DNA of 46,703 nucleotides from Escherichia phage 1H12. Below the pieces are notes generated by a model, which was not told the origin of the DNA, did not search any database, and saw only the letters and a program-made list of their open reading frames with translations. The position numbers were made by a program, and so were the translations under genes. The stretch lies in sequence record NC_049947.1. One strand, written 5' to 3'. Shown one piece after another: positions 9,708-44,287 of the stretch (position 1 is the first letter of the stretch; each line of letters begins with the position of its first letter).

Positions 9708-10130
9708 ATGTTCCTGAAAACCGAATCATTTGAACATAACGGTGTGACCGTCACGCTTTCTGAACTGTCAGCCCTGCAGCGTATTGAGCATCTCGCCCTG
9801 ATGAAACGGCAGGCAGAACAGGCGGAGTCAGACAGCAACCGGAAGTTTACTGTGGAAGACGCCATCAGAACCGGCGCGTTTCTGGTGGCGATGTCCCTGT
9901 GGCATAACCATCCGAAGAAGACAAAGCTGCCTTCCATGAATGAAGCCGTTAAACAGATTGAGCAGGAAGTGCTTACCACCTGGCCCACAGAGGCAATTTC
10001 TCATGCTGAAAACGTGGTGTACCGGCTGTCCGGTATGTATGAGTTTGTGGTGAATGATGCCCCTGAACAGGCAGAGGACGCCGGGTCTGCAGAGCCTGTT
10101 TCTGCGGGAAAGTGTTCGACGGTGAGCTGA
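9708..10130 (+). CDS. G: tail assembly chaperone G
   Basis: 140-aa ORF MFLKTESFEHNGVTVTLSEL matching lambda gpG; slippery GGGAAAG at 10106..10112 near its 3' end. Confidence 0.95.
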   Translation: MFLKTESFEHNGVTVTLSELSALQRIEHLALMKRQAEQAESDSNRKFTVEDAIRTGAFLVAMSLWHNHPKKTKLPSMNEAVKQIEQEVLTTWPTEAISHAENVVYRLSGMYEFVVNDAPEQAEDAGSAEPVSAGKCSTVS

Positions 10131-10546
10131 GTTTTGCCCTGAAACTGGCGCGTGAGATGGGGCGACCTGACTGGCGCGCCATGCTTGCCGGGATGTCATC
10201 CACAGAGTATGCCGACTGGCACCGCTTTTACAGTACCCATTATTTTCATGATGTTCTGCTGGATATGCACTTTTCCGGGCTGACGTACACCGTGCTCAGC
10301 CTGTTTTTCAGCGATCCGGATATGCATCCGCTGGATTTCAGTCTGCTGAACCGGCGTGAGGCTGACGAAGAGCCTGAAGATGATGTGCTGATGCAGAAAG
10401 CGGCAGGGCTTGCCGGAGGCGTCCGCTTTGCCCCGGACGGAAATGAAGTTATCCCCGCTTCCCCGGATATGGCGGGCATGACGGAGGATGACGTAATGCT
10501 GATGACAGTATCAGAAGGGATCGCAGGAGGAGTCCGGTATGGCTGA
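10112..10546 (+). CDS. T: T portion of the G-T tail assembly fusion (made by -1 programmed frameshift from G; full product 9708..10546)
   Basis: ORF in the -1 frame beginning at the GGGAAAG slippery heptamer, as in lambda G/GT. Confidence 0.85.
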   Translation: MFDGELSFALKLAREMGRPDWRAMLAGMSSTEYADWHRFYSTHYFHDVLLDMHFSGLTYTVLSLFFSDPDMHPLDFSLLNRREADEEPEDDVLMQKAAGLAGGVRFAPDGNEVIPASPDMAGMTEDDVMLMTVSEGIAGGVRYG

Positions 10547-10772
10547 ACCGGTAGGCGATCTGGTCGTTGATTTAAGTCTGGATGCGGCCAGATTTGACGA
10601 GCAGATGGCCAGAGTCAGGCGTCATTTTTCCGGTACGGAAAGTGATGCGAAAAAAACAGCGGCAGTCGTTGAACAGTCGCTGAGCCGACAGGCGCTGGCT
10701 GCACAGAAAGCGGGGATTTCCGTCGGGCAGTATAAAGCCTGCCATGCGTATGCTGCCTGCGCAGTTCACTGA
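10539..10772 (+). pseudogene. H: tape measure protein H, N-terminal fragment (first ~66 codons match lambda gpH, then frame is lost)
   Basis: MAEPVGDLVVDLSLDAARFDEQ...GQYKA matches the lambda gpH N-terminus; an extra nucleotide near 10737-10741 (gcctgcc versus lambda gccgcc) shifts the frame to a stop at 10770..10772. Confidence 0.7.
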
Positions 10773-13119
10773 CGTGGCCACGCAGCTTGCAGGCGGGCAA
10801 AGTCCGTGGCTGATCCTGCTGCAACAGGGTGGTCAGGTGAAGGACTCCTTCGGCGGGATGATCCCCATGTTCAGGGGGCTTGCCGGTGCGATCACCCTGC
10901 CGATGGTCGGGGCCACCTCGCTGGCGGTGGCGACCGGTGCGCTGGCGTATGCCTGGTATCAGGGCAACTCAACCCTGTCCGATTTCAATAAAACGCTGGT
11001 CCTTTCCGGTAATCAGGCGGGACTGACGGCAGATCGTATGCTGGCCCTGTCCAGATCCGGGCAGGCGGCAGGGCTGACGTTTAACCAGACCAGCGAGTCA
11101 CTGACGGCGCTGGTGAATGCCGGTGTGCGTGGTGGTGAGCAGTTTGAGGCAATCAGCCAGAGTGTGGCGCGTTTCTCCTCTGCATCCGGCGTGGAGGTGG
11201 ACAAGGTCGCTGAAGCCTTCGGGAAGCTGACCACTGACCCGACGTCTGGGTTGACGGCGATGGCGCGCCAGTTCCATAACGTGACGGCGGAACAGATTGC
11301 GTATGTTGCTCAGTTGCAGCGTTCCGGCGATGGGGCCGGGGCATTGCAGGCGGCGAACGAGGCCGCAACGAAAGGGTTTGATGACCAGACCCGTAAACTG
11401 AAAGATAACATGGGTACGCTGGAGACCTGGGCAGACAAGACTGCACAGGCATTCAAATCCATGTGGGATGCGGTGCTGGATATTGGTCGCCCGGACTCCT
11501 CTGCAGATATGCTCGCCAAAGCTGAAAAGGCTTTTGATGAAGCGGATAAAAAATGGCAGTGGTATCAGAGCCGAAGCCACCGGCGCGGTAAAACGTCAGC
11601 ATTTCTTGCCAATCTCCGGGGGGCATGGGAGAAGAGAGAGAATGCGCGACTTGGGCTTTCAGCCGCCACGTTGCAGGCAGATCTTGAAAAGGCCAGTGAG
11701 ATGGCAGCAAAAGATCGGGCCGAGTCTGAGGCATCACGGCTGAAATATACCGAAGAGGCGCAGAAGGCTTACGAACGCCTGCAGACACCGCTGGAGAAAT
11801 ATACCGCCCGCCAGGAGGAACTGAATAAGGCACTGAAAGACGGAAAAATCCTGCAGGCAGATTACAACACGCTGATGGCGGCGGCGAAAAAGGACTATGA
11901 AGCGACGCTGAAAAAGCCGAAGCAGTCCGGCGTGAAAGTGTCTGCGGGCGATCGTCAGGAAGACAGTGCTCATGCTGCCCTGCTGACGCTTCAGGCAGAA
12001 CTCCGGACACTGGAGAAGCATGCCGGAGCGAATGAGAAAATCAGCCAGCAGCGCCGGGATTTGTGGAAGGCGGAAAGTCAGTTCGCGGTACTGGAGGAGG
12101 CGGCGCAACGTCGCCAGCTGTCCGCACAGGAGAAATCCCTGCTGGCGCATAAAGATGAGACGCTGGAGTACAAACGCCAGCTGGCTGCACTTGGCGATAA
12201 GGTCACGTATCAGGAGCACCTGAACGCGCTGGCGCAGCAGGCGGATAAATTCGCACAGCAGCAACGGGCAAAACGGGCAGCCATTGAGGCGAAAAACCGG
12301 GGGCTGACTGACCGGCAGGCAGCGCGGGACGCCACGGAACAGCGCCTGAAGGAACAGTATGGCGATAATCCGCTGGCGCTGAATAGCGTCATGTCAGAGC
12401 AGAAAAAGACCTGGGCGGCTGAAGACCAGCTTCGCGGGAGCTGGATGGCAGGCCTCAGGTCAGGCTGGAGTGAGTGGGAAGAGAGCGCCACGGACAGTAT
12501 GTCGCAGGTTAAAAGTGCAGCCACGCAGACCTTTGATGGTATTGCACAGAATATGGCGGCGATGCTGACCGGCAGTGAACAGAACTGGCGCAGCTTCACC
12601 CGTTCCGTGCTGTCCATGATGACAGAAATTCTGCTTAAGCAGGCAATGGTGGGGATTGTCGGGAGTATCGGCAGCGCCATTGGAGGTGCTACCGGTGGCG
12701 GCTCATCAGCGTCAGGTGGTGCAGCCATTCAGGCCGCTGCGGCGAAACTCCATTTTGCGACCGGAGGATTTACGGGAACCGGCGGCAAATATGAGCCAGC
12801 AGGGATTGTTCACCGTGGTGAATTTGTCTTCACGAAGGAGGCAACCAGCCGGATTGGCGTGGGGAATCTTTACCGGCTGATGCGCGGCTATGCCACCGGC
12901 GGTTATGTCGGTACACCGGGCAGCATGGCGGACAGTCGGTCGCAGGCGTCCGGGAAGTTTGAGCAGAATAACCATGTGGTGATTAACAACGACGGCACGA
13001 ACGGTCAGATAGGGCCACAGGCGCTGAAGGCGGTTTATGACGTAGCCCGTAAGGCGGCAATGGATGTTGTGACCGGGCAGATGCGTGATGGTGGTCTGTT
13101 CTCCGGAGGTGGACGATGA
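10744..13119 (+). CDS. H: tail tape measure protein H (main body, 791 aa)
   Basis: MRMLPAQFTDVATQLAGGQSPWLILLQQGG continues lambda gpH from residue ~68; C-terminus ends GGLFSGGGR as in lambda. Confidence 0.9.
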   Translation: MRMLPAQFTDVATQLAGGQSPWLILLQQGGQVKDSFGGMIPMFRGLAGAITLPMVGATSLAVATGALAYAWYQGNSTLSDFNKTLVLSGNQAGLTADRMLALSRSGQAAGLTFNQTSESLTALVNAGVRGGEQFEAISQSVARFSSASGVEVDKVAEAFGKLTTDPTSGLTAMARQFHNVTAEQIAYVAQLQRSGDGAGALQAANEAATKGFDDQTRKLKDNMGTLETWADKTAQAFKSMWDAVLDIGRPDSSADMLAKAEKAFDEADKKWQWYQSRSHRRGKTSAFLANLRGAWEKRENARLGLSAATLQADLEKASEMAAKDRAESEASRLKYTEEAQKAYERLQTPLEKYTARQEELNKALKDGKILQADYNTLMAAAKKDYEATLKKPKQSGVKVSAGDRQEDSAHAALLTLQAELRTLEKHAGANEKISQQRRDLWKAESQFAVLEEAAQRRQLSAQEKSLLAHKDETLEYKRQLAALGDKVTYQEHLNALAQQADKFAQQQRAKRAAIEAKNRGLTDRQAARDATEQRLKEQYGDNPLALNSVMSEQKKTWAAEDQLRGSWMAGLRSGWSEWEESATDSMSQVKSAATQTFDGIAQNMAAMLTGSEQNWRSFTRSVLSMMTEILLKQAMVGIVGSIGSAIGGATGGGSSASGGAAIQAAAAKLHFATGGFTGTGGKYEPAGIVHRGEFVFTKEATSRIGVGNLYRLMRGYATGGYVGTPGSMADSRSQASGKFEQNNHVVINNDGTNGQIGPQALKAVYDVARKAAMDVVTGQMRDGGLFSGGGR

Positions 13120-13445
13120 AAACCTTCCGCTGGAAAGTGAAACCGGGTATGGATGTGGCTTCGACTCCTTCCGTCAGGGAGGTGCGCTTTGGTGATGGCT
13201 ATTCCCAGCGAGCGCCTGCCGGGCTGAATGCCAACCTGAAAACGTACAGCGTGACGATTTCTGTCCCCCGTTGGGAGGCCACGGCGCTGGAATCGTTTCT
13301 GGCAGAGCACGGAGGCTGGAAAGCCTTTCTGTGGACGCCGCCTTATGACTGGCGGCAGATAAAGGTGACCTGCGCAAAATGGACGTCGCGGGTCAGTATG
13401 CTGCGTGTTGAGTTCAGCGCAGAGTTTAAACAGGTGGTGAACTGA
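13116..13445 (+). CDS. M: minor tail protein M
   Basis: 109-aa ORF overlapping the H stop; lambda gpM. Confidence 0.9.
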   Translation: MKTFRWKVKPGMDVASTPSVREVRFGDGYSQRAPAGLNANLKTYSVTISVPRWEATALESFLAEHGGWKAFLWTPPYDWRQIKVTCAKWTSRVSMLRVEFSAEFKQVVN

Positions 13446-15521: not shown

Positions 15522-18500
15522 ATGGGTAAAGGCAGCAGTAAGGGGCATACCCCGCGCGAAGCGAAGGACAACCTGAAGTCCACGCAGCTGCTGAGTGTGA
15601 TCGATGCCATCAGCGAAGGGCCGGTTGAAGGTCCGGTGGATGGATTAAAAAGCGTGCTGCTGAACAGTACGCCGGTGCTGGACAGTGAGGGGAATACCAA
15701 TATCTTCGGTGTCACGGTGGTGTTCCGGGCAGGTGAGCAGGAGCAGACTCCGCCGGAGGGGTTTGAATCCTCCGGCTCCGAGACGGTGCTGGGTACGGAA
15801 GTGAAATATGACATGCCGATCACCCGCACCATCACGTCGGCAAACATCGACCGTCTGCGCTTTACTTTCGGCGTGCAGGCACTGGTGGAAACTACCTCAA
15901 AGGGGGACAGGAATCCGTCGGAAGTCCGTCTGCTGGTTCAGATACAGCGTAATGGTGGCTGGGTGACGGAAAAAGACATCACCATTAAAGGCAAAACCAC
16001 CTCGCAGTATCTGGCCTCGGTGGTGGTGGATAACCTGCCGCCGCGCCCGTTTAATATCCGGATGCGCAGGATGACGCCGGACAGCACCACAGACCAGCTG
16101 CAGAACAAAACGCTCTGGTCGTCATACACCGAAATCATCGATGTGAAACAGTGCTACCCGAACACGGCACTGGTCGGCGTGCAGGTGGACTCGGAACAGT
16201 TCGGCAGTCAGCAGGTGAGCCGTAATTATCATCTTCGCGGGCGCATTCTGCAGGTGCCGTCGAACTATAACCCGCAGACGCGGCAATACAGCGGTATCTG
16301 GGACGGAACGTTAAAACCGGCATACAGCAACAACATGGCCTGGTGTCTGTGGGATATGCTGACCCATCCGCGCTACGGCATGGGAAAACGTCTTGGTGCG
16401 GCGGATGTGGATAAATGGGCGCTGTATGTCATCGGCCAGTACTGCGACCAGTCGGTGCCGGACGGCTTTGGCGGCACGGAGCCGCGCATTACCTGTAATG
16501 CGTACCTGACCACACAGCGCAAGGCGTGGGATGTGCTCAGTGATTTCTGCTCGGCGATGCGCTGTATGCCGGTATGGAACGGGCAGACGCTGACGTTCGT
16601 GCAGGACCGACCATCAGATAAGGTGTGGACCTATAACCGCAGTAATGTGGTGATGCCGGATGATGGCGCGCCGTTCCGCTACAGCTTCAGCGCCCTGAAG
16701 GACCGCCATAATGCCGTTGAGGTGAACTGGATTGACCCGGATAACGGCTGGGAGACGGCGACAGAGCTCGTGGAGGATACGCAGGCCATTGCCCGTTACG
16801 GTCGTAATGTCACGAAGATGGATGCCTTTGGCTGTACCAGTCGGGGGCAGGCACACCGCGCCGGGCTGTGGCTGATTAAAACGGAACTGCTGGAAACGCA
16901 GACCGTGGATTTCAGCGTCGGCGCAGAAGGGCTTCGCCATGTACCGGGCGATGTTATTGAAATCTGTGATGATGACTATGCCGGTATCAGCACCGGTGGT
17001 CGTGTGCTGGCGGTGAACAGCCAGACCCGGACGCTGACGCTCGACCGTGAAATCACGCTGCCATCCTCCGGTACCACGCTGATAAGCCTGGTTGACGGAA
17101 GTGGCAATCCGGTCAGCGTGGAGGTTCAGTCCGTCACCGACGGCGTGAAGGTAAAAGTGAGCCGTGTTCCTGACGGTGTTGCTGAATACAGCGTATGGGG
17201 GCTGAAGCTGCCGACGCTGCGCCAGCGCCTGTTCCGCTGTGTGAGTATCCGGGAGAACGATGACGGTACGTATGCCATCACCGCCGTGCAGCATGTACCG
17301 GAAAAAGAAGCCATCGTGGATAACGGGGCGCACTTTGACGGCGACCAGAGCGGCACGGTGAATGGTGTCACGCCGCCAGCGGTGCAGCACCTGACCGCCG
17401 AAGTCACCACAGACAGCGGGGAATATCAGGTGCTGGCGCGATGGGACACGCCGAAGGTGGTGAAGGGCGTGAGCTTCCTGCTTCGCCTTACCGTGGCAGC
17501 GGACGACGGCAGTGAGCGGCTGGTCAGCATGGCCCGGACGACGGAAACCACATACCGCTTCAGGCAACTGGCGCTGGGGAACTACAGGCTGACAGTCCGG
17601 GCGGTAAATGCGTGGGGGCAGCAGGGCGATCCGGCATCGGTATCGTTCCGGATTGCCGCACCGGCAGCGCCGTCGCAGATTGAGCTGACACCGGGGTATT
17701 TTCAGATAACCGCCACGCCCCATCTTGCCGTTTATGATCCGACGGTACAGTTTGAGTTCTGGTTCTCGGAAAAGCGGATTGCGGATATCAGGCAGGTTGA
17801 AACCACAGCCCGCTATCTTGGCACGGCGCTGTACTGGATAGCTGCCAGTATCAATATCAAACCGGGCCATGATTATTATTTTTACATCCGCAGTGTGAAC
17901 ACCGTTGGCAAATCGGCATTTGTGGAGGCTGTTGGCCAGCCGAGTGATGATGCATCCGGCTATCTGGATTTTTTCAAAGGCGAGATAGGGAAAAGCCATC
18001 TGGCTCAGGAGCTGTGGACGCAGATTGATAACGGTCAGCTTGCGCCTGACCTGGCTGAAATCAGGACGTCCATTACGGATGTCAGCAATGAAATCACGCA
18101 GACCGTCAATAAGAAACTGGAAGACCAGAGTGCGGCAATTCAGCAGATACAGAAGGTTCAGGTTGATACAAATAATAACCTGAACAGCATGTGGGCTGTG
18201 AAGCTGCAGCAGATGCAGGACGGACGCCTTTATATCGCGGGTATTGGTGCCGGTATTGAGAACACCCCTGACGGCATGCAGAGTCAGGTGCTGCTGGCGG
18301 CGGACAGGATTGCGATGATTAATCCTGCGAATGGCAATACAAAGCCGATGTTTGTTGGGCAGGGCGATCAGATATTCATGAACGAAGTGTTCCTGAAATA
18401 TCTGACGGCTCCCACCATTACCAGCGGTGGCAATCCCCCAACGTTTTCACTGACACCTGATGGTCGACTTTCTGCGAGAAATGCGGATATCAGCGGTAAC

Positions 18501-19049: not shown

Positions 19050-19062
19050 TTGTGGAGTGAAT

Positions 19063-21084
19063 ATGGCAGTACAGATTTCAGGTGTGCTGAAAGACGGTGC
19101 AGGAAAACCGATACAGAACTGCACCATTCAGCTCAAAGCAAAACGTAACAGCACCACAGTTGTGGTGAACACGGTGGCCTCAGAAAATCCGGATGAAGCC
19201 GGACGTTACAGCATGGATGTTGAGTATGGCCAGTACAGCGTCGCCCTGCTGGTTGAAGGTTTTCCGCCTTCACATGCCGGGACCATCACCGTGTATGAGG
19301 ATTCTAAGCCGGGGACATTGAATGATTTTCTGGGCGCTGCAACAGAAGATGATGTTTGTCCGGAGGCACTGTATCGTTTTGAAAAGATGGTGGAAGAGGC
19401 GGCACGCAACGCTGAAGCCGCCTCTCAGAGCGCAGCGGCAGCAAAGAAATCAGAAACAGCAGCGGCATCGTCCAGGAACGCGGCGAAAACATCAGAGACG
19501 AATGCAGGTAACAGCGCGAAAGCGGCAGCTTCTTCAAAAACAGCCGCACAAAACGCAGCAACAGCGGCAGAACGTTCAGAGACAAATGCCCGTGCGTCAG
19601 AAGAAGCCTCCGCAGACAGTGAAGAGGCTTCCCGCCGTAATGCAGAGTCAGCCGCTGAAAATGCCGGAGTCGCCACCACAAAAGCGCGGGAGGCCGCAGC
19701 AGACGCAACAAAGGCCGGGCAGAAAAAGGATGAGGCTCTGTCGGCAGCGACACGAGCTGAAAAGGCGGCAGACCGCGCAGAAGCCGCAGCGGAAGTGACT
19801 GCAGAGCCCTGTGCGAATATAGTGCCGCCGCTGCCTGATGTGTGGATACCGTTTAACGATTCACTGGATATGATTACGGGTTTTTCGCCATCTTATAAAA
19901 AGATAGTTATTGGTGACGATGAAATAACAATGCCAGGCGACAAGATTGTTAAGTTTAAACGTGCTTCAACAGCAACGTATATTAATAAGTCCGGCCAACT
20001 CAAGCTTGCTGAAGTTGACGAACCGCGATTTGAGCGCGATGGCTTATTGATTGAAGGACAGAGGACAAATTATCTGAGGAACTCAAATAAACCAGACTCA
20101 TGGACTGTTCATTCCGCACTGAATAAAACATTTGGCACTGATAAACAGGGGTTCAATTATGCCACGGTGACACCCACGGAAAGTATAGTGGGAACAACAG
20201 GTGGCTATACTGTGCATGGTGTGGTTGCAGCAGACAGATTCCCGCTGGCAAGTGGTGAATGTTTCACTTTTTCGTGCCGGGTTAAAGGCGCTAAAGCACG
20301 ATGCAGGTTAAGAGTTTCAGTTATTATTGGTGGAACAGATACCTTCTCTGCTGACTCTTATCTTGATCTGGATACCCGGATCGCAACAGTAAGCGGTAAT
20401 ACATCCCTTATAACAGCCAAAGCTGAACAACAGGGCGAGTGGACCTACTATGAGGCCACTTATACAGCTAATACGGACATTGATACCGTTAACTGTGCTT
20501 TTTATATGACAAATAAAATAAGTAATGAGCCATTCTATGATGACTCAACATTAACCATGACGACGCCGCAAATTGAACTGGGCAATACGGCATCGTCATT
20601 TATTGTAACTACAATGCCAACAACACGCGCAAGTGATGTAGTTACTATCCCATCGCAGAATAACCTGTCAACACGGCCTTTTACGGTATTGTGCGAAGTA
20701 AGCAGGAACTGGAGTACACCGCCCAATGTTGCGCCAAGGATATTTGATGTTGGAGGGCACAGTATTGATGATAATTATTTATCGCTGGGGTTTGTTGCAA
20801 CAGGAAAGATAAGCGCCAACGTAGGAATGGTTCAGCCACAAATTGCCTCAGATGGAGAAAGGTTCATTGTGGGTGTGAGAGCTAAATCTGATTTATCAGT
20901 AAATGCAATATGCAATGGTAATTATACAACAAACCTTAATGGTAAAATATTTGGAGTTACAGCAACATCGTACCGGTTTGGTGGGCAGACCGCAGCAGGA
21001 ACGCGTCATTTGTTTGGACACATCAGAAATTTCAGAGTCTGGTTTAAAGAATTAAATGACAGGCAAATCAAGGAGGCAGTATGA
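19063..21084 (+). CDS. stf: side tail fiber protein (lambda Stf-like N-terminus, unrelated C-terminal domain)
   Basis: MAVQISGVLKDGAGKPIQNCTIQLKAKRNSTTVVVNTV matches the lambda Stf N-terminus; Ala/Ser-rich low-complexity middle; C-terminal ~430 aa not lambda-like. Confidence 0.85.
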   Translation: MAVQISGVLKDGAGKPIQNCTIQLKAKRNSTTVVVNTVASENPDEAGRYSMDVEYGQYSVALLVEGFPPSHAGTITVYEDSKPGTLNDFLGAATEDDVCPEALYRFEKMVEEAARNAEAASQSAAAAKKSETAAASSRNAAKTSETNAGNSAKAAASSKTAAQNAATAAERSETNARASEEASADSEEASRRNAESAAENAGVATTKAREAAADATKAGQKKDEALSAATRAEKAADRAEAAAEVTAEPCANIVPPLPDVWIPFNDSLDMITGFSPSYKKIVIGDDEITMPGDKIVKFKRASTATYINKSGQLKLAEVDEPRFERDGLLIEGQRTNYLRNSNKPDSWTVHSALNKTFGTDKQGFNYATVTPTESIVGTTGGYTVHGVVAADRFPLASGECFTFSCRVKGAKARCRLRVSVIIGGTDTFSADSYLDLDTRIATVSGNTSLITAKAEQQGEWTYYEATYTANTDIDTVNCAFYMTNKISNEPFYDDSTLTMTTPQIELGNTASSFIVTTMPTTRASDVVTIPSQNNLSTRPFTVLCEVSRNWSTPPNVAPRIFDVGGHSIDDNYLSLGFVATGKISANVGMVQPQIASDGERFIVGVRAKSDLSVNAICNGNYTTNLNGKIFGVTATSYRFGGQTAAGTRHLFGHIRNFRVWFKELNDRQIKEAV

Positions 21085-21756: not shown

Positions 21757-22614
21757 CTAATTGGGTGATAACAGATCCTGTGTATGGGAGTTTCCCTTTT
21801 TGCGTGCGTTGATGCTGGTAACGGCAAACGTCATGATGAACAAAACCGCGAATAAGACGACAATCGTCGGAGCTGGTGCGCTGTCGATAAAAAAGGACAA
21901 CCAGACACCAGTCATTGACACTATTACCGATATGCCAGTCGCCAGTAGGAGCGCAATATGAAAGCGTTGTGTCAGGAGTACCGCAATGGCGCCAGGCGCA
22001 ATGAGCAGAGAAATGGAGAGAATGATACCTACCGCTTTCAGCGTCGCCACAATGGTCAGAGAGACCATGCACAGCAGCCCATAATGCAGCCATCTCGTAT
22101 GCAAACCGCTTACCTGCGCCTGTTGATAATCAAAGCTGAACAGCAAAAAATCCCGCCATTTTACGCTAATAACAAGTGTAACCAGCCCGGCAATAATCAT
22201 CGTCTGGATTATATCGCCGATGGTTATCCCGAGCATGTCGCCGAAAAGAATATGGTCAAGATGTACGTCTGGTTTGACTGCAATATACAAGATCAGACCT
22301 GCGGCAAACATGCCAGAAAAAACAATCCCCATCACTGTATCTTGCTTGATTCGGCTGTTGTCTTTCAGGTATCCCGTCGCCACCGCGCAGAATACTCCGG
22401 CGACGAATGCCCCTGTAGCCAAAGGTAACCCCAGAATCCAGGCAAGCACGATGCCAGGAAAAACCGCATGACTCATCGCGTCACCCATCAGTGCCCAACC
22501 TTTCAGGACCAGAAAGACCGACAGCAGCGCACAGGGTATGGAAACTACCAGTGAAATCAGCAGTGCGTGACTCATAAAGGTGAACTGCAGTGGCTCCAGT
22601 AATAATGCCATCAT
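21757..22614 (-). CDS. sitD: manganese/iron ABC transporter permease SitD
   Basis: 285-aa polytopic membrane ORF; ABC-3 metal permease family; fourth gene of a sitABCD-like operon. Confidence 0.85.
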   Translation of the reverse strand: MMALLLEPLQFTFMSHALLISLVVSIPCALLSVFLVLKGWALMGDAMSHAVFPGIVLAWILGLPLATGAFVAGVFCAVATGYLKDNSRIKQDTVMGIVFSGMFAAGLILYIAVKPDVHLDHILFGDMLGITIGDIIQTMIIAGLVTLVISVKWRDFLLFSFDYQQAQVSGLHTRWLHYGLLCMVSLTIVATLKAVGIILSISLLIAPGAIAVLLTQRFHIALLLATGISVIVSMTGVWLSFFIDSAPAPTIVVLFAVLFIMTFAVTSINARKKGNSHTQDLLSPN

Positions 22615-23468
22615 GAGCGATCCTCCAGCGCCTTATGCGCACGCCGACGATTTGCCAAAAGCCCATGGGTGGGCGCAAAGACAAATGCTAAAAGAAACAG
22701 CAGTGTCTGCGCCACCACGATGATTCCACCTGTCGCGCCGTCCAGAAAGTAACTGACCCACGCGCCGAGGAAACTGGTTACACTGCCAATAGTTACAGCA
22801 ATCATGAGCAGGCGGGGAAAACGATCGGTTAACAACCATGCTGTTGCACCGGGAGTCACCACCAGACAGATCACCAGAAAGGCACCAACCGTTTGCAGCG
22901 CCGCAACGGTCGAAACCGACAGCAGGGTGAAGAAGAGGAGTTTTAATCTGCCCGGATGCAATCCAATAGCACGGGCGTGATTCTCGTCGAAAAAGGTCAC
23001 CATAAGATCTTTCCATTTGAAAAAAAGCACGATGATCGAGAGAATGCCAATGATAGTGAGTTGCAGGATATCCGCCGGATCGATTGCCAGAATATTGCCC
23101 AGGACGATGGTCTGAATGTTCACAGATGTCGGGTTCAATGACACCATAAACAGCCCCAGGCCAAAAAAGGACGAGAAGATCAGACCGATGATGGCATCTT
23201 CTTTTAAGCGGGTGCGTTGGTTAAGAAACAGCATGCTGCCCGCAGCCAGTCCGCCGGAAAAGAAGGCTCCCAGAGAAAACGGAAGCCCCAGCATATATGC
23301 CCCCGCAACACCCGGGACAATAGAGTGCGACAACGCATCGCCAATCAGCGACCAGCCTTTTAGCATCAGATAGCATGACAGGAAAGCGCAGAGACCGCCG
23401 ACCATCGCCGAGACCCACATCGCATTGAGCATATATTCATAGCTGAAGGGTTCCAGTAGCACGTTCAT
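22611..23468 (-). CDS. sitC: manganese/iron ABC transporter permease SitC
   Basis: 285-aa polytopic membrane ORF, stop/start overlap with neighbours. Confidence 0.85.
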
Positions 23469-24292
23469 CTTTCTTCCCTCTGCACCGCTGACGGTCGATG
23501 AGCCACAAAAGGGCGTTCATCGTCAGTAATAATGCTTTCTTCCGAGCCGTTAAGTGTGACATGGCGCAGTACGCCGCTAAAAGCCAGCTCTAGGTTCTCG
23601 GCTGTAAAAGTGGTGTCTGTCGGCCCGCTTGCCAGGACGGTGCCTTTGACCATGACCGTATAATCGCAAAATGTCGTGACGGATCCGAGATTGTGTGTTG
23701 AGACAAGCATCGTTTTGCCTTCCGCGCGTAACTCCCTCAACAGGCTGATGATTTTGGCTTCGGTTTTCACATCAACGCCAGTAAAAGGTTCATCCAGCAG
23801 GATCACATCACCCTGCTGTGCAATCGCTCTCGCCAGAAAGACGCGTTTCTTTTGTCCACCGGAAAGCTCGCCGATTTGTCGATGGCGAAAATTCACCATA
23901 TCGACACGTTCCAGCGCATCGGTGACAATTTGACGATCCCTCTTTTTGGCGATACGCAACATACCCATATGCCCATAGCGGCCCATCATCACCACATCTT
24001 CCACCAGTACAGGAAATGACCAGTCAACATCTTCTGACTGAGGGACGTAGGCAACCAGGTTTTTCTGTAACGCCTGTCGCGTGGGAATACCCAGAACAGA
24101 TATCTTTCCGCTGGTCAGACGCACAAATCCCATAATCGCTTTAAACAACGTCGATTTTCCGGAACCGTTTACCCCAACCAGAGCGGCAATAGATCCACTT
24201 GGTACTGTGAAGGATGCATCGCGCAGTGCTGTGTGCCCGTTACGCCAGGTGACAGTAACATCATTAACGACAATGCCTGCAGATTGCATCAT
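23465..24292 (-). CDS. sitB: manganese/iron ABC transporter ATP-binding protein SitB
   Basis: 275-aa ORF with Walker [10 protein letters not shown] and an ABC signature motif. Confidence 0.9.
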
Positions 24293-25206
24293 TATTTCTC
24301 CCTTTTCCCAGCTTTAATTCCCTGTACCAGCGTACTGGTAGTAACCTTAAGAAGGTCGATATACGTCGGTACCGGGCCGTTTTCTGTGCTCAGGGAATCG
24401 ACATAGAGCACACCGCCGTAGTGTGCGCCGGTTTCACGCGCAACCTGACGCGCTGGTTTATCGGAAATCGTACTCTCGCTAAAGACTGCCGGGATATGAT
24501 TTTTCTTAACTATATCAACAACCTTACGTACCTGCTGCGGTGTTCCTTGTTGATCGGCATTAATCGGCCACAGATAAAGCTCTTTTAGCCCCAAATCGCG
24601 TGCGAGATAAGAAAAAGCCCCTTCACTGGTGACCATCCATCGCTGATTCTCAGGGAGTTCCGTAATCTGCTTACGCAGGGGGGCAAGGGTTTGGGTAATC
24701 TTGGCTTTATAAGTATCGGCATTGCGTTGGTAGGTTTGTGCATTTGCCGGATCGTATTTTATCAACGCATCACGAATATTATCGACGTAAATCAGAGCAT
24801 TATCTGGCGACATCCATGCATGGGGGTTAGGTTTGCCCTCATAGGGTCCTTCGGTGATCCCTACAGGCGTCACACCCGAAGAGACAATTACTTCTGGAAC
24901 CCCATTGAGATGCTGGTAAAAGCGTTGGAACCACAATTCCAGATTCATACCATTGGCGAGAATCAGTTGTGCCCCCTGCGCACGTTTAATATCGCCAGGG
25001 GTAGGCTGATACTCATGAATTTCTGCACCAGGCTTGGTTATGGATGAGACTTCTGCAGCATCTCCCGCCACGTTTTTGGCCATATCCGCGATGATGGTAA
25101 ATGTTGTAATGACCTTGAATTTTTCAGTTGCACTTGCCTGAAATGCGATCGAGCAGGTGAGTGCGAGCCCCCCCAAGAGCATGGTTACTTTTTTTATCGA
25201 GTGCAT
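24292..25206 (-). CDS. sitA: manganese/iron ABC transporter periplasmic substrate-binding protein SitA
   Basis: 304-aa ORF with an N-terminal signal peptide; TroA/PsaA-like metal-binding protein. Confidence 0.85.
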
Positions 25207-43546: not shown

Positions 43547-44287
43547 GTGGATGGTATGCCATGCATATGTTCTATCATTTTGGTTTTGAACTCGTTTGAT
43601 ATCCGGCTTGGTAAAGAAAAAATCTCTCTAAAAAAAGGAAGTGTTGTTGCTATAGAATACAATTTAAAAGTTTTCTTTTCTTCAAATAAAGATAATATAA
43701 TGATCGTGGATATTGAAGAGAAAACAGTTAATGACTTCTTTAAAAACAATACACTCTCACCTTTTTCTGTAAGAAGATTTTATTCAGCATACTTGATAGT
43801 AAACTGTACAGACTATTCATTGTTAAAGAACTTGATAGGTTGCTTGAATTGTGATGGTGAAACTACGGCTGTAGTTAAAAATTCAATATTATTTGCATGT
43901 CTTGCTATTTTATCCTCGGAAAAAATGTTTCAGAGTTTTTTGTTTGGGTGTCTTAATAGTTTAGGAAGCAAAGTTAAGGCTATTATTCACTCGGACATAT
44001 CTGCAGCATGGAGACTTTGTGATATTTCTTCAAGACTATGTCTGAGTGAAAGTTTGTTAAAAAGAAAACTAAAACACGAAGGCTTATCATTTAGCAAATT
44101 AATTCTTGAAGAACGAATGGTGATGGCTGAAAGGTTATTAAGCTACAATTTCTATCCTGTTGGGAAAGTTGCTAAAATATGTGGTTATGAAAGCGCGTCA
44201 TATTTTATAAGTGTTTTCAGAAGATATTTTGGTGTTCCCCCCCATGAATATTCATCAAGATTTTTTTTAGAAAAAGGCAAGATGTAA
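43547..44287 (+). CDS. AraC-family transcriptional regulator (AppY-like)
   Basis: 246-aa ORF in a very AT-rich island with a C-terminal AraC-type HTH (KVAKICGYESASYFISVFRRYFGVPPHEY). Confidence 0.75.
   Translation: MDGMPCICSIILVLNSFDIRLGKEKISLKKGSVVAIEYNLKVFFSSNKDNIMIVDIEEKTVNDFFKNNTLSPFSVRRFYSAYLIVNCTDYSLLKNLIGCLNCDGETTAVVKNSILFACLAILSSEKMFQSFLFGCLNSLGSKVKAIIHSDISAAWRLCDISSRLCLSESLLKRKLKHEGLSFSKLILEERMVMAERLLSYNFYPVGKVAKICGYESASYFISVFRRYFGVPPHEYSSRFFLEKGKM

What the first reader, a model, noticed from the sequence alone, without database searches (positions are those of the whole stretch)
10700..10780. Apparent +1 frameshift splitting tape measure gene H
The first 66 codons from 10539 match the lambda gpH N-terminus, then an extra nucleotide (gcctgcc here, gccgcc in lambda as recalled, near 10737-10741) shifts the frame to a stop at 10770..10772. 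The rest of H resumes in another frame at 10744. Either a homopolymer-independent sequencing error or a real inactivating mutation that would make the phage tail-defective.
Basis: seen in the sequence. Interest (0 to 1): 0.45.

Follow-up and report, generated by a model that had tools for sequence, protein, structure and literature searches.

The report
Single-base error splitting a phage tail gene
The tail tape-measure gene of this lambda-like phage genome (Escherichia phage 1H12) is split by one extra C found in no other known copy of the gene; it is most likely a mistake in the deposited sequence, because the phage was isolated as a plaque-former.

Summary
Gene H (tape measure) runs from 10539, matches lambda gpH for 67 codons, then goes out of frame and stops at 10770-10772. 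The remaining 791 codons are read from the ATG at 10744, in the +1 frame, to 13119.

The extra base is best described as a C (C to CC at 10738/10739). The closest relatives read GCTGCC, lambda reads GCCGCC, and the window reads GCCTGCC. Removing one C restores an 859-codon H whose protein is identical to that of sibling phage Lambda_2E9.

The window is Escherichia phage 1H12 (LR595850 and its RefSeq copy; exemplar of Jouyvirus jv1H12), where the two pieces are annotated as separate proteins. The insertion is unique:
- No match in 5,426 complete E. coli genomes or 50,697 phage records.
- No exact match in IMG/VR or in metagenome contigs, where the in-frame versions are common.

The sequenced phages of the source study were plaque-purified and amplified, and H is essential in lambda. 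A sibling record carries a similar private +C in essential gene M.

Best explanation: a sequencing, assembly or editing artefact (about 0.75). Main rival: a real private mutation in the sequenced stock (about 0.2). Only the reads or resequencing can settle it. Interest is low.

The parts
10539..13119 (+). Whole tape-measure gene H as it stands in the record. It is 2581 nt, one base too long to be a single reading frame.
   Evidence: Siblings annotate one 2580-nt CDS at the same place. Removing one C gives an 859-aa protein identical to the Lambda_2E9 H protein and 89% identical to lambda gpH over its full length.
10539..10772 (+). ORF1: the 5' fragment of H. It encodes 77 aa (67 genuine H residues plus 10 out-of-frame residues), including the stop.
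   Evidence: It has a strong Shine-Dalgarno site (GGAGGAG, -10.3 kcal/mol). It is annotated as a separate protein, VUA85643.1 / YP_009909507.1, of Escherichia phage 1H12.
10738..10739 (+). CC dinucleotide containing the extra C (window GCCTGCC; nearest relatives GCTGCC; lambda GCCGCC).
   Evidence: Alignments. It lies on the third position of Ala codon 67. That position is a common synonymous C/T polymorphism: the T allele has 73 exact hits in IMG/VR and the C allele at least 120.
10770..10772 (+). Premature TGA stop reached in the shifted frame.
10744..13119 (+). ORF2: the remaining 791 codons of H, in the +1 frame, starting at an internal Met codon (Met69 of H).
   Evidence: Pfam TMP_2 matches from profile position 17 of 208, so the domain is cut by the shift, and Tape_meas_lam_C also matches. 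There is no ribosome-binding site: -3.1 kcal/mol, at background level. It is annotated as VUA85644.1 / YP_009909508.1.

Best explanation
The extra C at 10738/10739 is most likely an error in the deposited genome of Escherichia phage 1H12 (LR595850 and its RefSeq copy). It would have been introduced during sequencing, assembly or manual finishing. On this reading the real phage carries an intact 859-codon tape-measure gene H like all its relatives.

Shown here:
- The base is present in the record.
- It splits H into two pieces.
- It is unique to this record.
- Removing it restores the sibling protein exactly.

Inferred, not shown: that the base is absent from the phage DNA itself.
For: 1. Uniqueness.
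- A 41-mer centred on the insertion has no match in 5,426 complete E. coli genomes or 50,697 phage records.
- The surrounding 61-mer finds 3,818 and 73 homologous places, and none of them matches it exactly; the best are 98.4%.
- The 33-mer with the insertion has 0 exact hits in IMG/VR and in metagenome contigs. The in-frame 32-mer has 73 and 63.

2. It is the only internal indel between the window and five near-identical whole genomes, and removing it gives an H protein identical to that of 2E9.

3. Provenance.
- The split products are exact matches to proteins of Escherichia phage 1H12 on a 46,703-bp contig.
- Lambda_1H12 / LR595850 is listed in the source data of PMC6969025.
- That paper's methods say the sequenced strain-derived phages were plaque-purified on an indicator strain, amplified, and DNase-treated before DNA extraction. 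The stock therefore made infectious tailed particles.

4. H is essential.
- H and M are both listed as essential in lambda (PMC10695390, Table 1).
- N-terminal deletions of the TP901-1 tape-measure protein abolish infectivity (PMC5099701).

5. The downstream piece has no ribosome-binding site, and no +1 slippery motif is visible in the overlap 10684-10772.

6. A sibling record from the same study project (PRJEB31591), Lambda_2E9, has its own private +C in essential tail gene M, again immediately before CTG (GACTGG to GACCTGG). In the 19-kb structural region of 11 genomes these are the only two coding indels. Two lethal-looking frameshifts of the same form in plaque-forming phages point to a technical cause.

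7. The assembly used SPAdes with --only-assembler --meta. That skips read error correction, and no polishing step is described. Some genomes were also joined by hand.
Against: - Consensus-level one-base insertions outside long homopolymers are uncommon in Illumina assemblies at good coverage (my own knowledge). No reads or coverage figures are available here.
- The paper's text does not name 1H12 individually, so plaque purification is inferred from the methods that apply to all 18 sequenced strain-derived phages.
- The similarity between the H and M insertions could be coincidence.
Confidence: 0.75

Rival explanations
1. The insertion is a real private mutation that was the majority sequence in the DNA that was sequenced. 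It could have arisen during stock amplification. H-defective genomes are still replicated and packaged into DNase-resistant heads, and can be helped in trans by wild-type co-infecting phage. Alternatively it is a leaky mutation tolerated at low fitness. Either way the genome as written would be tail-defective or nearly so.
For: - The base is in the deposited consensus.
- Illumina consensus indels at non-homopolymer sites are rare (own knowledge).
- The window also has one private substitution (2726, synonymous A to C in gene W), so this isolate does differ slightly from its siblings.
- In lambda, heads and tails assemble independently (established knowledge), so DNA of an H-minus mutant would survive the DNase step described.
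Against: - A tail-defective mutant cannot form plaques and cannot become the majority of a plaque-purified, amplified stock without a helper. The K-12 indicator strain is described as devoid of active prophage.
- Revertants would be strongly selected.
- No other copy anywhere carries the change.
- The parallel private +C in gene M of 2E9 would need a second such accident.
Confidence: 0.2
2. The insertion is real and the phage is fully viable because a working H is still made. Three routes are conceivable: a +1 ribosomal frameshift in the 10684-10772 overlap, reinitiation at ATG 10744 after termination at 10770-10772, or the 77-aa and 791-aa pieces working together as a two-part tape measure.
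For: - The two frames overlap for 89 nt with no stop in either.
- The stop at 10770 lies only 26 nt downstream of ATG 10744, so termination-reinitiation is physically conceivable (own knowledge of bacterial reinitiation).
- Only a few copies of H are needed per tail (own knowledge).
- Translational 'correction' of indels is a documented phenomenon (abstract of PMC5009743).
Against: - No +1 slippery pattern is present. The codon before the stop is CAC, which does not re-pair in +1, and there are no rare codons.
- ATG 10744 has no Shine-Dalgarno pairing.
- The upstream sequence is identical in relatives that have no frameshift, so nothing has been selected for recoding.
- The Pfam TMP_2 domain is cut in two.
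- N-terminal tape-measure deletions are lethal in TP901-1.
Confidence: 0.04

Closest known systems
Bacteriophage lambda gpH (tail tape-measure protein, 853 aa; J02459 coordinates 10542-13103)
   Same: - Same genome position: after V, G and T, and before M, L, K, I and J.
- Same start context.
- 89% protein identity over the full length once the extra base is removed.
- Pfam TMP_2 and Tape_meas_lam_C both match.
- The upstream G/GT slippery site GGGAAAG is conserved at 10106-10112.
   Different: - In this record the gene is interrupted after codon 67 by a +1 shift.
- The restored protein is 859 aa, 6 residues longer than lambda's, as in all its Jouyvirus siblings.
H genes of sibling infant-gut lambdoid phages from the same study (Lambda_2E9, 2G7a, ev245, ev087, ev203, ev110, ev066, ev058, 4B5, ev243)
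   Same: - Genomes about 99.98% identical for the closest siblings, roughly 10 differences in 46.7 kb.
- The H protein is identical to that of 2E9 after correction.
   Different: All ten siblings have an uninterrupted 2580-nt H. Only the window has the extra C.
Private +C frameshift in gene M of Lambda_2E9 (LR595860)
   Same: - Also a single C inserted directly before CTG.
- Also in an essential tail gene.
- Also private to one record from the same study project, PRJEB31591.
   Different: It is in a different gene and a different record. There the annotated M product is shortened (13114..13410 instead of ..13443) rather than split into two large pieces.
Programmed +1 ribosomal frameshifting (E. 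coli prfB type)
   Same: Two overlapping frames would need a +1 shift to give the full-length product.
   Different: - No slippery codon-plus-stop motif comparable to the CUU UGA C of prfB.
- No conservation: every relative is in frame.
- The prfB features cited here come from my own knowledge.

Membership tests
Lambda-type tail tape-measure protein (gpH) | Pfam TMP_2 (PF06791) and Tape_meas_lam_C (PF09718) domains | tested here: met
   ORF2 matches TMP_2 at E = 6e-66 and Tape_meas_lam_C at E = 3e-21. TMP_2 starts at profile position 17, so the frameshift cuts the domain.
Lambda-type tail tape-measure protein (gpH) | High full-length similarity to lambda gpH | tested here: met
   The restored 859-aa protein aligns to residues 1-853 of lambda gpH at 89% identity. 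The ORF1 prefix of 67 aa is identical.
Lambda-type tail tape-measure protein (gpH) | Position downstream of the G/GT chaperone pair (with its -1 slippery site) and upstream of M-L-K-I-J | tested here: met
   Gene order is shown. GGGAAAG lies at 10106-10112 as in lambda.
Lambda-type tail tape-measure protein (gpH) | One uninterrupted reading frame whose length sets the tail length | tested here: not met
   As deposited, the gene is split into 77-aa and 791-aa ORFs. The feature is met only after deleting one C.
Programmed +1 ribosomal frameshift | Frameshift conserved among relatives | tested here: not met
   All 10 siblings are in frame. None of the 3,818 E. coli places or 73 phage places matches the window's 61-mer exactly, and there is no match to the insertion-centred 41-mer.
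Programmed +1 ribosomal frameshift | Slippery P-site codon that re-pairs in +1, next to a stop or slowly decoded codon | tested here: not met
   The overlap 10684-10772 was read codon by codon. The codon before TGA is CAC (its +1 codon is ACT), and there are no rare Arg codons. This was judged by eye against the prfB pattern known to me.
Decaying gene of a defective prophage (pseudogene) | Lesion inherited by a lineage and accompanied by other disabling changes | tested here: not met
   The lesion is private to one record. It is the only internal indel against five whole-genome siblings, and the only other private change is synonymous.
Sequence-record artefact | The extra base is absent from the underlying reads or from resequenced DNA | not testable with these tools
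   No read data are available. Support is indirect only: uniqueness, plaque-forming provenance, and a parallel private frameshift in a sibling record.

The most novel reading that the evidence does not exclude
The extra C is real, and phage 1H12 still builds working tails from a frameshifted tape-measure gene. That would require either low-level +1 recoding or reinitiation, or the 77-aa N-terminal piece and the 791-aa remainder acting together as a two-part tape measure.
Probability: 0.04. Interest if true: 0.6.

Novelty: not a real feature. Interest (0 to 1): 0.08.

Why it matters
The value is mainly for database quality. This record is the exemplar genome of an ICTV species (Jouyvirus jv1H12) and sits in RefSeq. 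Anyone using it for tail-length inference, pangenome work or pseudogene counts would be misled. If the base were real, it would be an ordinary inactivating mutation. If it were real and the phage were still viable, it would show unexpected tolerance of a split tape measure, but nothing found here supports that.

Tried and rejected
1. GTDB species-representative scan. The insertion-bearing 33-mer gave 0 hits, but the in-frame control also gave 0. This collection therefore says nothing either way.

2. An apparent second occurrence. The 791-aa product is also called on a 331-kb bacterial contig (GCA_964043145.1). That contig begins exactly at the ATG, so the site of the insertion is not on it. 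With thousands of assemblies breaking in this conserved region, one starting at that base is an expected selection effect. They do not look like an independent sequence.

3. A mixed-template idea. GCCTGCC contains both common alleles (C, then T) of a synonymous polymorphism. That suggests a bad merge of two lambdoid templates. This is possible but untestable here. The parallel M insertion in 2E9 is a plain C duplication that this idea does not explain.

4. Literature. The source paper does not mention 1H12, frameshifts or the tape measure in its text. A search for Jouyvirus, 1H12 and LR595850 found nothing relevant.

5. An internal ribosome-binding site for ORF2 was rejected.

Full report
**What is in the sequence**

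The window is a complete lambda-like phage genome. Gene H, the tail tape measure, starts at 10539 behind a strong ribosome-binding site. It is identical to lambda gpH for 67 residues, then reads ten unrelated residues and stops at TGA 10770-10772.

The rest of H, 791 codons, lies in the +1 frame from ATG 10744 to 13119. It is 88% identical to lambda gpH residues 69-853.

Pfam TMP_2 matches the second piece only from profile position 17, so the shift cuts through that domain. Tape_meas_lam_C is intact.

**Which base is extra**

Whole-genome alignment shows about 10 differences in 46.7 kb from Lambda_2E9, Lambda_2G7a and Lambda_ev245. At the site these phages and an E. coli prophage read AAAGCTGCCATG. 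Lambda reads AAAGCCGCCATG. The window reads AAAGCCTGCCATG.

Against its own lineage, then, the change is C to CC at 10738/10739. Deleting one C gives a 2580-nt ORF whose 859-aa product is identical to the H protein of 2E9 and 89% identical to lambda gpH.

The site is the third position of Ala codon 67, a common synonymous C/T polymorphism. In IMG/VR the T-allele 32-mer has 73 exact hits and the C-allele 32-mer at least 120.

**Identity of the record**

The 77-aa and 791-aa products are exact matches to proteins annotated in Escherichia phage 1H12 (VUA85643.1 and VUA85644.1; RefSeq YP_009909507.1 and YP_009909508.1), on a contig of 46,703 bp. That phage is the exemplar of the species Jouyvirus jv1H12.

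Lambda_1H12 / LR595850 appears in the accession table of Mathieu et al. 2020 (PMC6969025). Of the 19 Lambda records in that table, LR595850 is the one look-up that failed in the phage collection; the 17 others I met in searches or look-ups are present, and ev099 and ev207 appear in the hit list.

The paper's methods state that:
- the 18 sequenced strain-derived phages were plaque-purified on an indicator strain and amplified;
- lysates were PEG-precipitated and DNase-treated;
- DNA was sequenced on a MiSeq;
- assembly used SPAdes with --only-assembler --meta;
- three genomes were finished by hand.

**How unique the insertion is**

| Test | Collection | Result |
|---|---|---|
| 562-nt query | phages; E. 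coli genomes | every best hit 99.8%, i.e. lacking one base |
| 61-mer around the site | 5,426 E. coli genomes | 3,818 homologous places, best 98.4% |
| 61-mer around the site | 50,697 phage records | 73 homologous places, best 98.4% |
| 41-mer centred on the extra C (can only seed a match if the insertion is present) | both | no match |
| 33-mer with the insertion | IMG/VR; metagenome contigs | 0 and 0 |
| In-frame 32-mer (control) | IMG/VR; metagenome contigs | 73 and 63 |
| Either version | GTDB species representatives | 0 and 0, so uninformative |

A second contig carrying the 791-aa product starts exactly at the ATG, so it does not cover the site.

**Context within the sibling set**

Against five whole-genome siblings, the window's only internal indel is this one. 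Its only other private change is a synonymous A to C in gene W at 2726.

In an 11-genome alignment of the roughly 19-kb structural region there are just three one-base indels, all private:
- +C in H of 1H12;
- +C in M of 2E9 (GACTGG to GACCTGG, which shortens the annotated M);
- loss of one T from a T4 run between I and J in ev058.

Both coding indels are a C inserted directly before CTG. Both hit genes listed as essential in lambda (PMC10695390, Table 1). Both records belong to the same study project.

**Could the split gene still work?**

The ATG at 10744 pairs with the anti-Shine-Dalgarno sequence at -3.1 kcal/mol. That is background level for ATGs in this genome; the true H start scores -10.3.

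The 89-nt overlap of the two frames (10684-10772) shows no +1 slippery pattern and no rare codons. The same sequence occurs in relatives that have no frameshift.

In the lactococcal phage TP901-1, deleting N-terminal parts of the tape measure abolishes infectivity (PMC5099701). That is an analogy, not a test on lambda.

**Conclusion**

The best explanation is an error in the deposited sequence (about 0.75), because:
- the lesion would be lethal;
- it is private among thousands of copies;
- the phage was isolated by plaque formation;
- the assembly pipeline skipped read error correction and describes no polishing step;
- a sibling record shows a matching lethal-looking insertion.

The main rival is a real private mutation in the sequenced stock (about 0.2). 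A viable phage with a recoded or two-piece tape measure is not excluded but has no positive support (about 0.04). Only the reads or resequencing can decide. Either way this is an ordinary finding, of use mainly for correcting a RefSeq/ICTV exemplar genome.

Noticed in passing
L001 (LR595860, Lambda_2E9) about 13347; corresponds to window 13348: The sibling record has a private extra C in essential tail gene M (GACTGG to GACCTGG). Its annotated M ends at 13410 instead of 13443. The insertion has the same form as the one in the window's H: a C before CTG.
   Followed up: partly
window 44261 (T8 run); L003 (LR597648, Lambda_ev245): ev245 has lost one T from a run of eight. This shortens the annotated hypothetical gene, which ends at 44267 rather than 44286 as in 2E9. 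It is a typical homopolymer length difference.
   Followed up: no
window 2726, 1177, 2058: The private substitutions of the three closest genomes are all A>C or T>G transversions: window 2726 (synonymous, in gene W), 2G7a at 1177, and ev245 at 2058. In contrast, 6 of the 7 polymorphisms shared between groups of isolates are transitions. This may point to uncorrected sequencing errors in the set.
   Followed up: partly
window 10106-10112: The lambda G/GT programmed -1 frameshift site GGGAAAG is conserved at the end of gene G. The T frame (10112-10546) is open, as in lambda.
   Followed up: partly
window about 21757-25206, minus strand: A sitABCD manganese/iron transporter operon sits in the phage's accessory region, as annotated in the near-identical siblings. 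The source paper already describes it as present in 70% of its lambda phages.
   Followed up: no
L154 (LR595863, Lambda_4B5) 19052-20398: An IS4 transposase gene is inserted between J and the side tail fibre gene in sibling phage 4B5. This accounts for part of its extra length.
   Followed up: no
L085 (LR597650, Lambda_ev203); window 15866-17530: ev203 is otherwise near-identical but carries a dense patch of substitutions across the middle of gene J, as expected from a recombinational exchange of part of the host-recognition gene.
   Followed up: no
L150 (GCA_964043145.1, contig CAXJOB010000045.1) position 1: A 331-kb bacterial contig begins exactly at the internal ATG of H (window 10744). Its edge-truncated gene call is therefore identical to the window's 791-aa ORF2. 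It looks like independent support for the frameshift but is not.
   Followed up: yes
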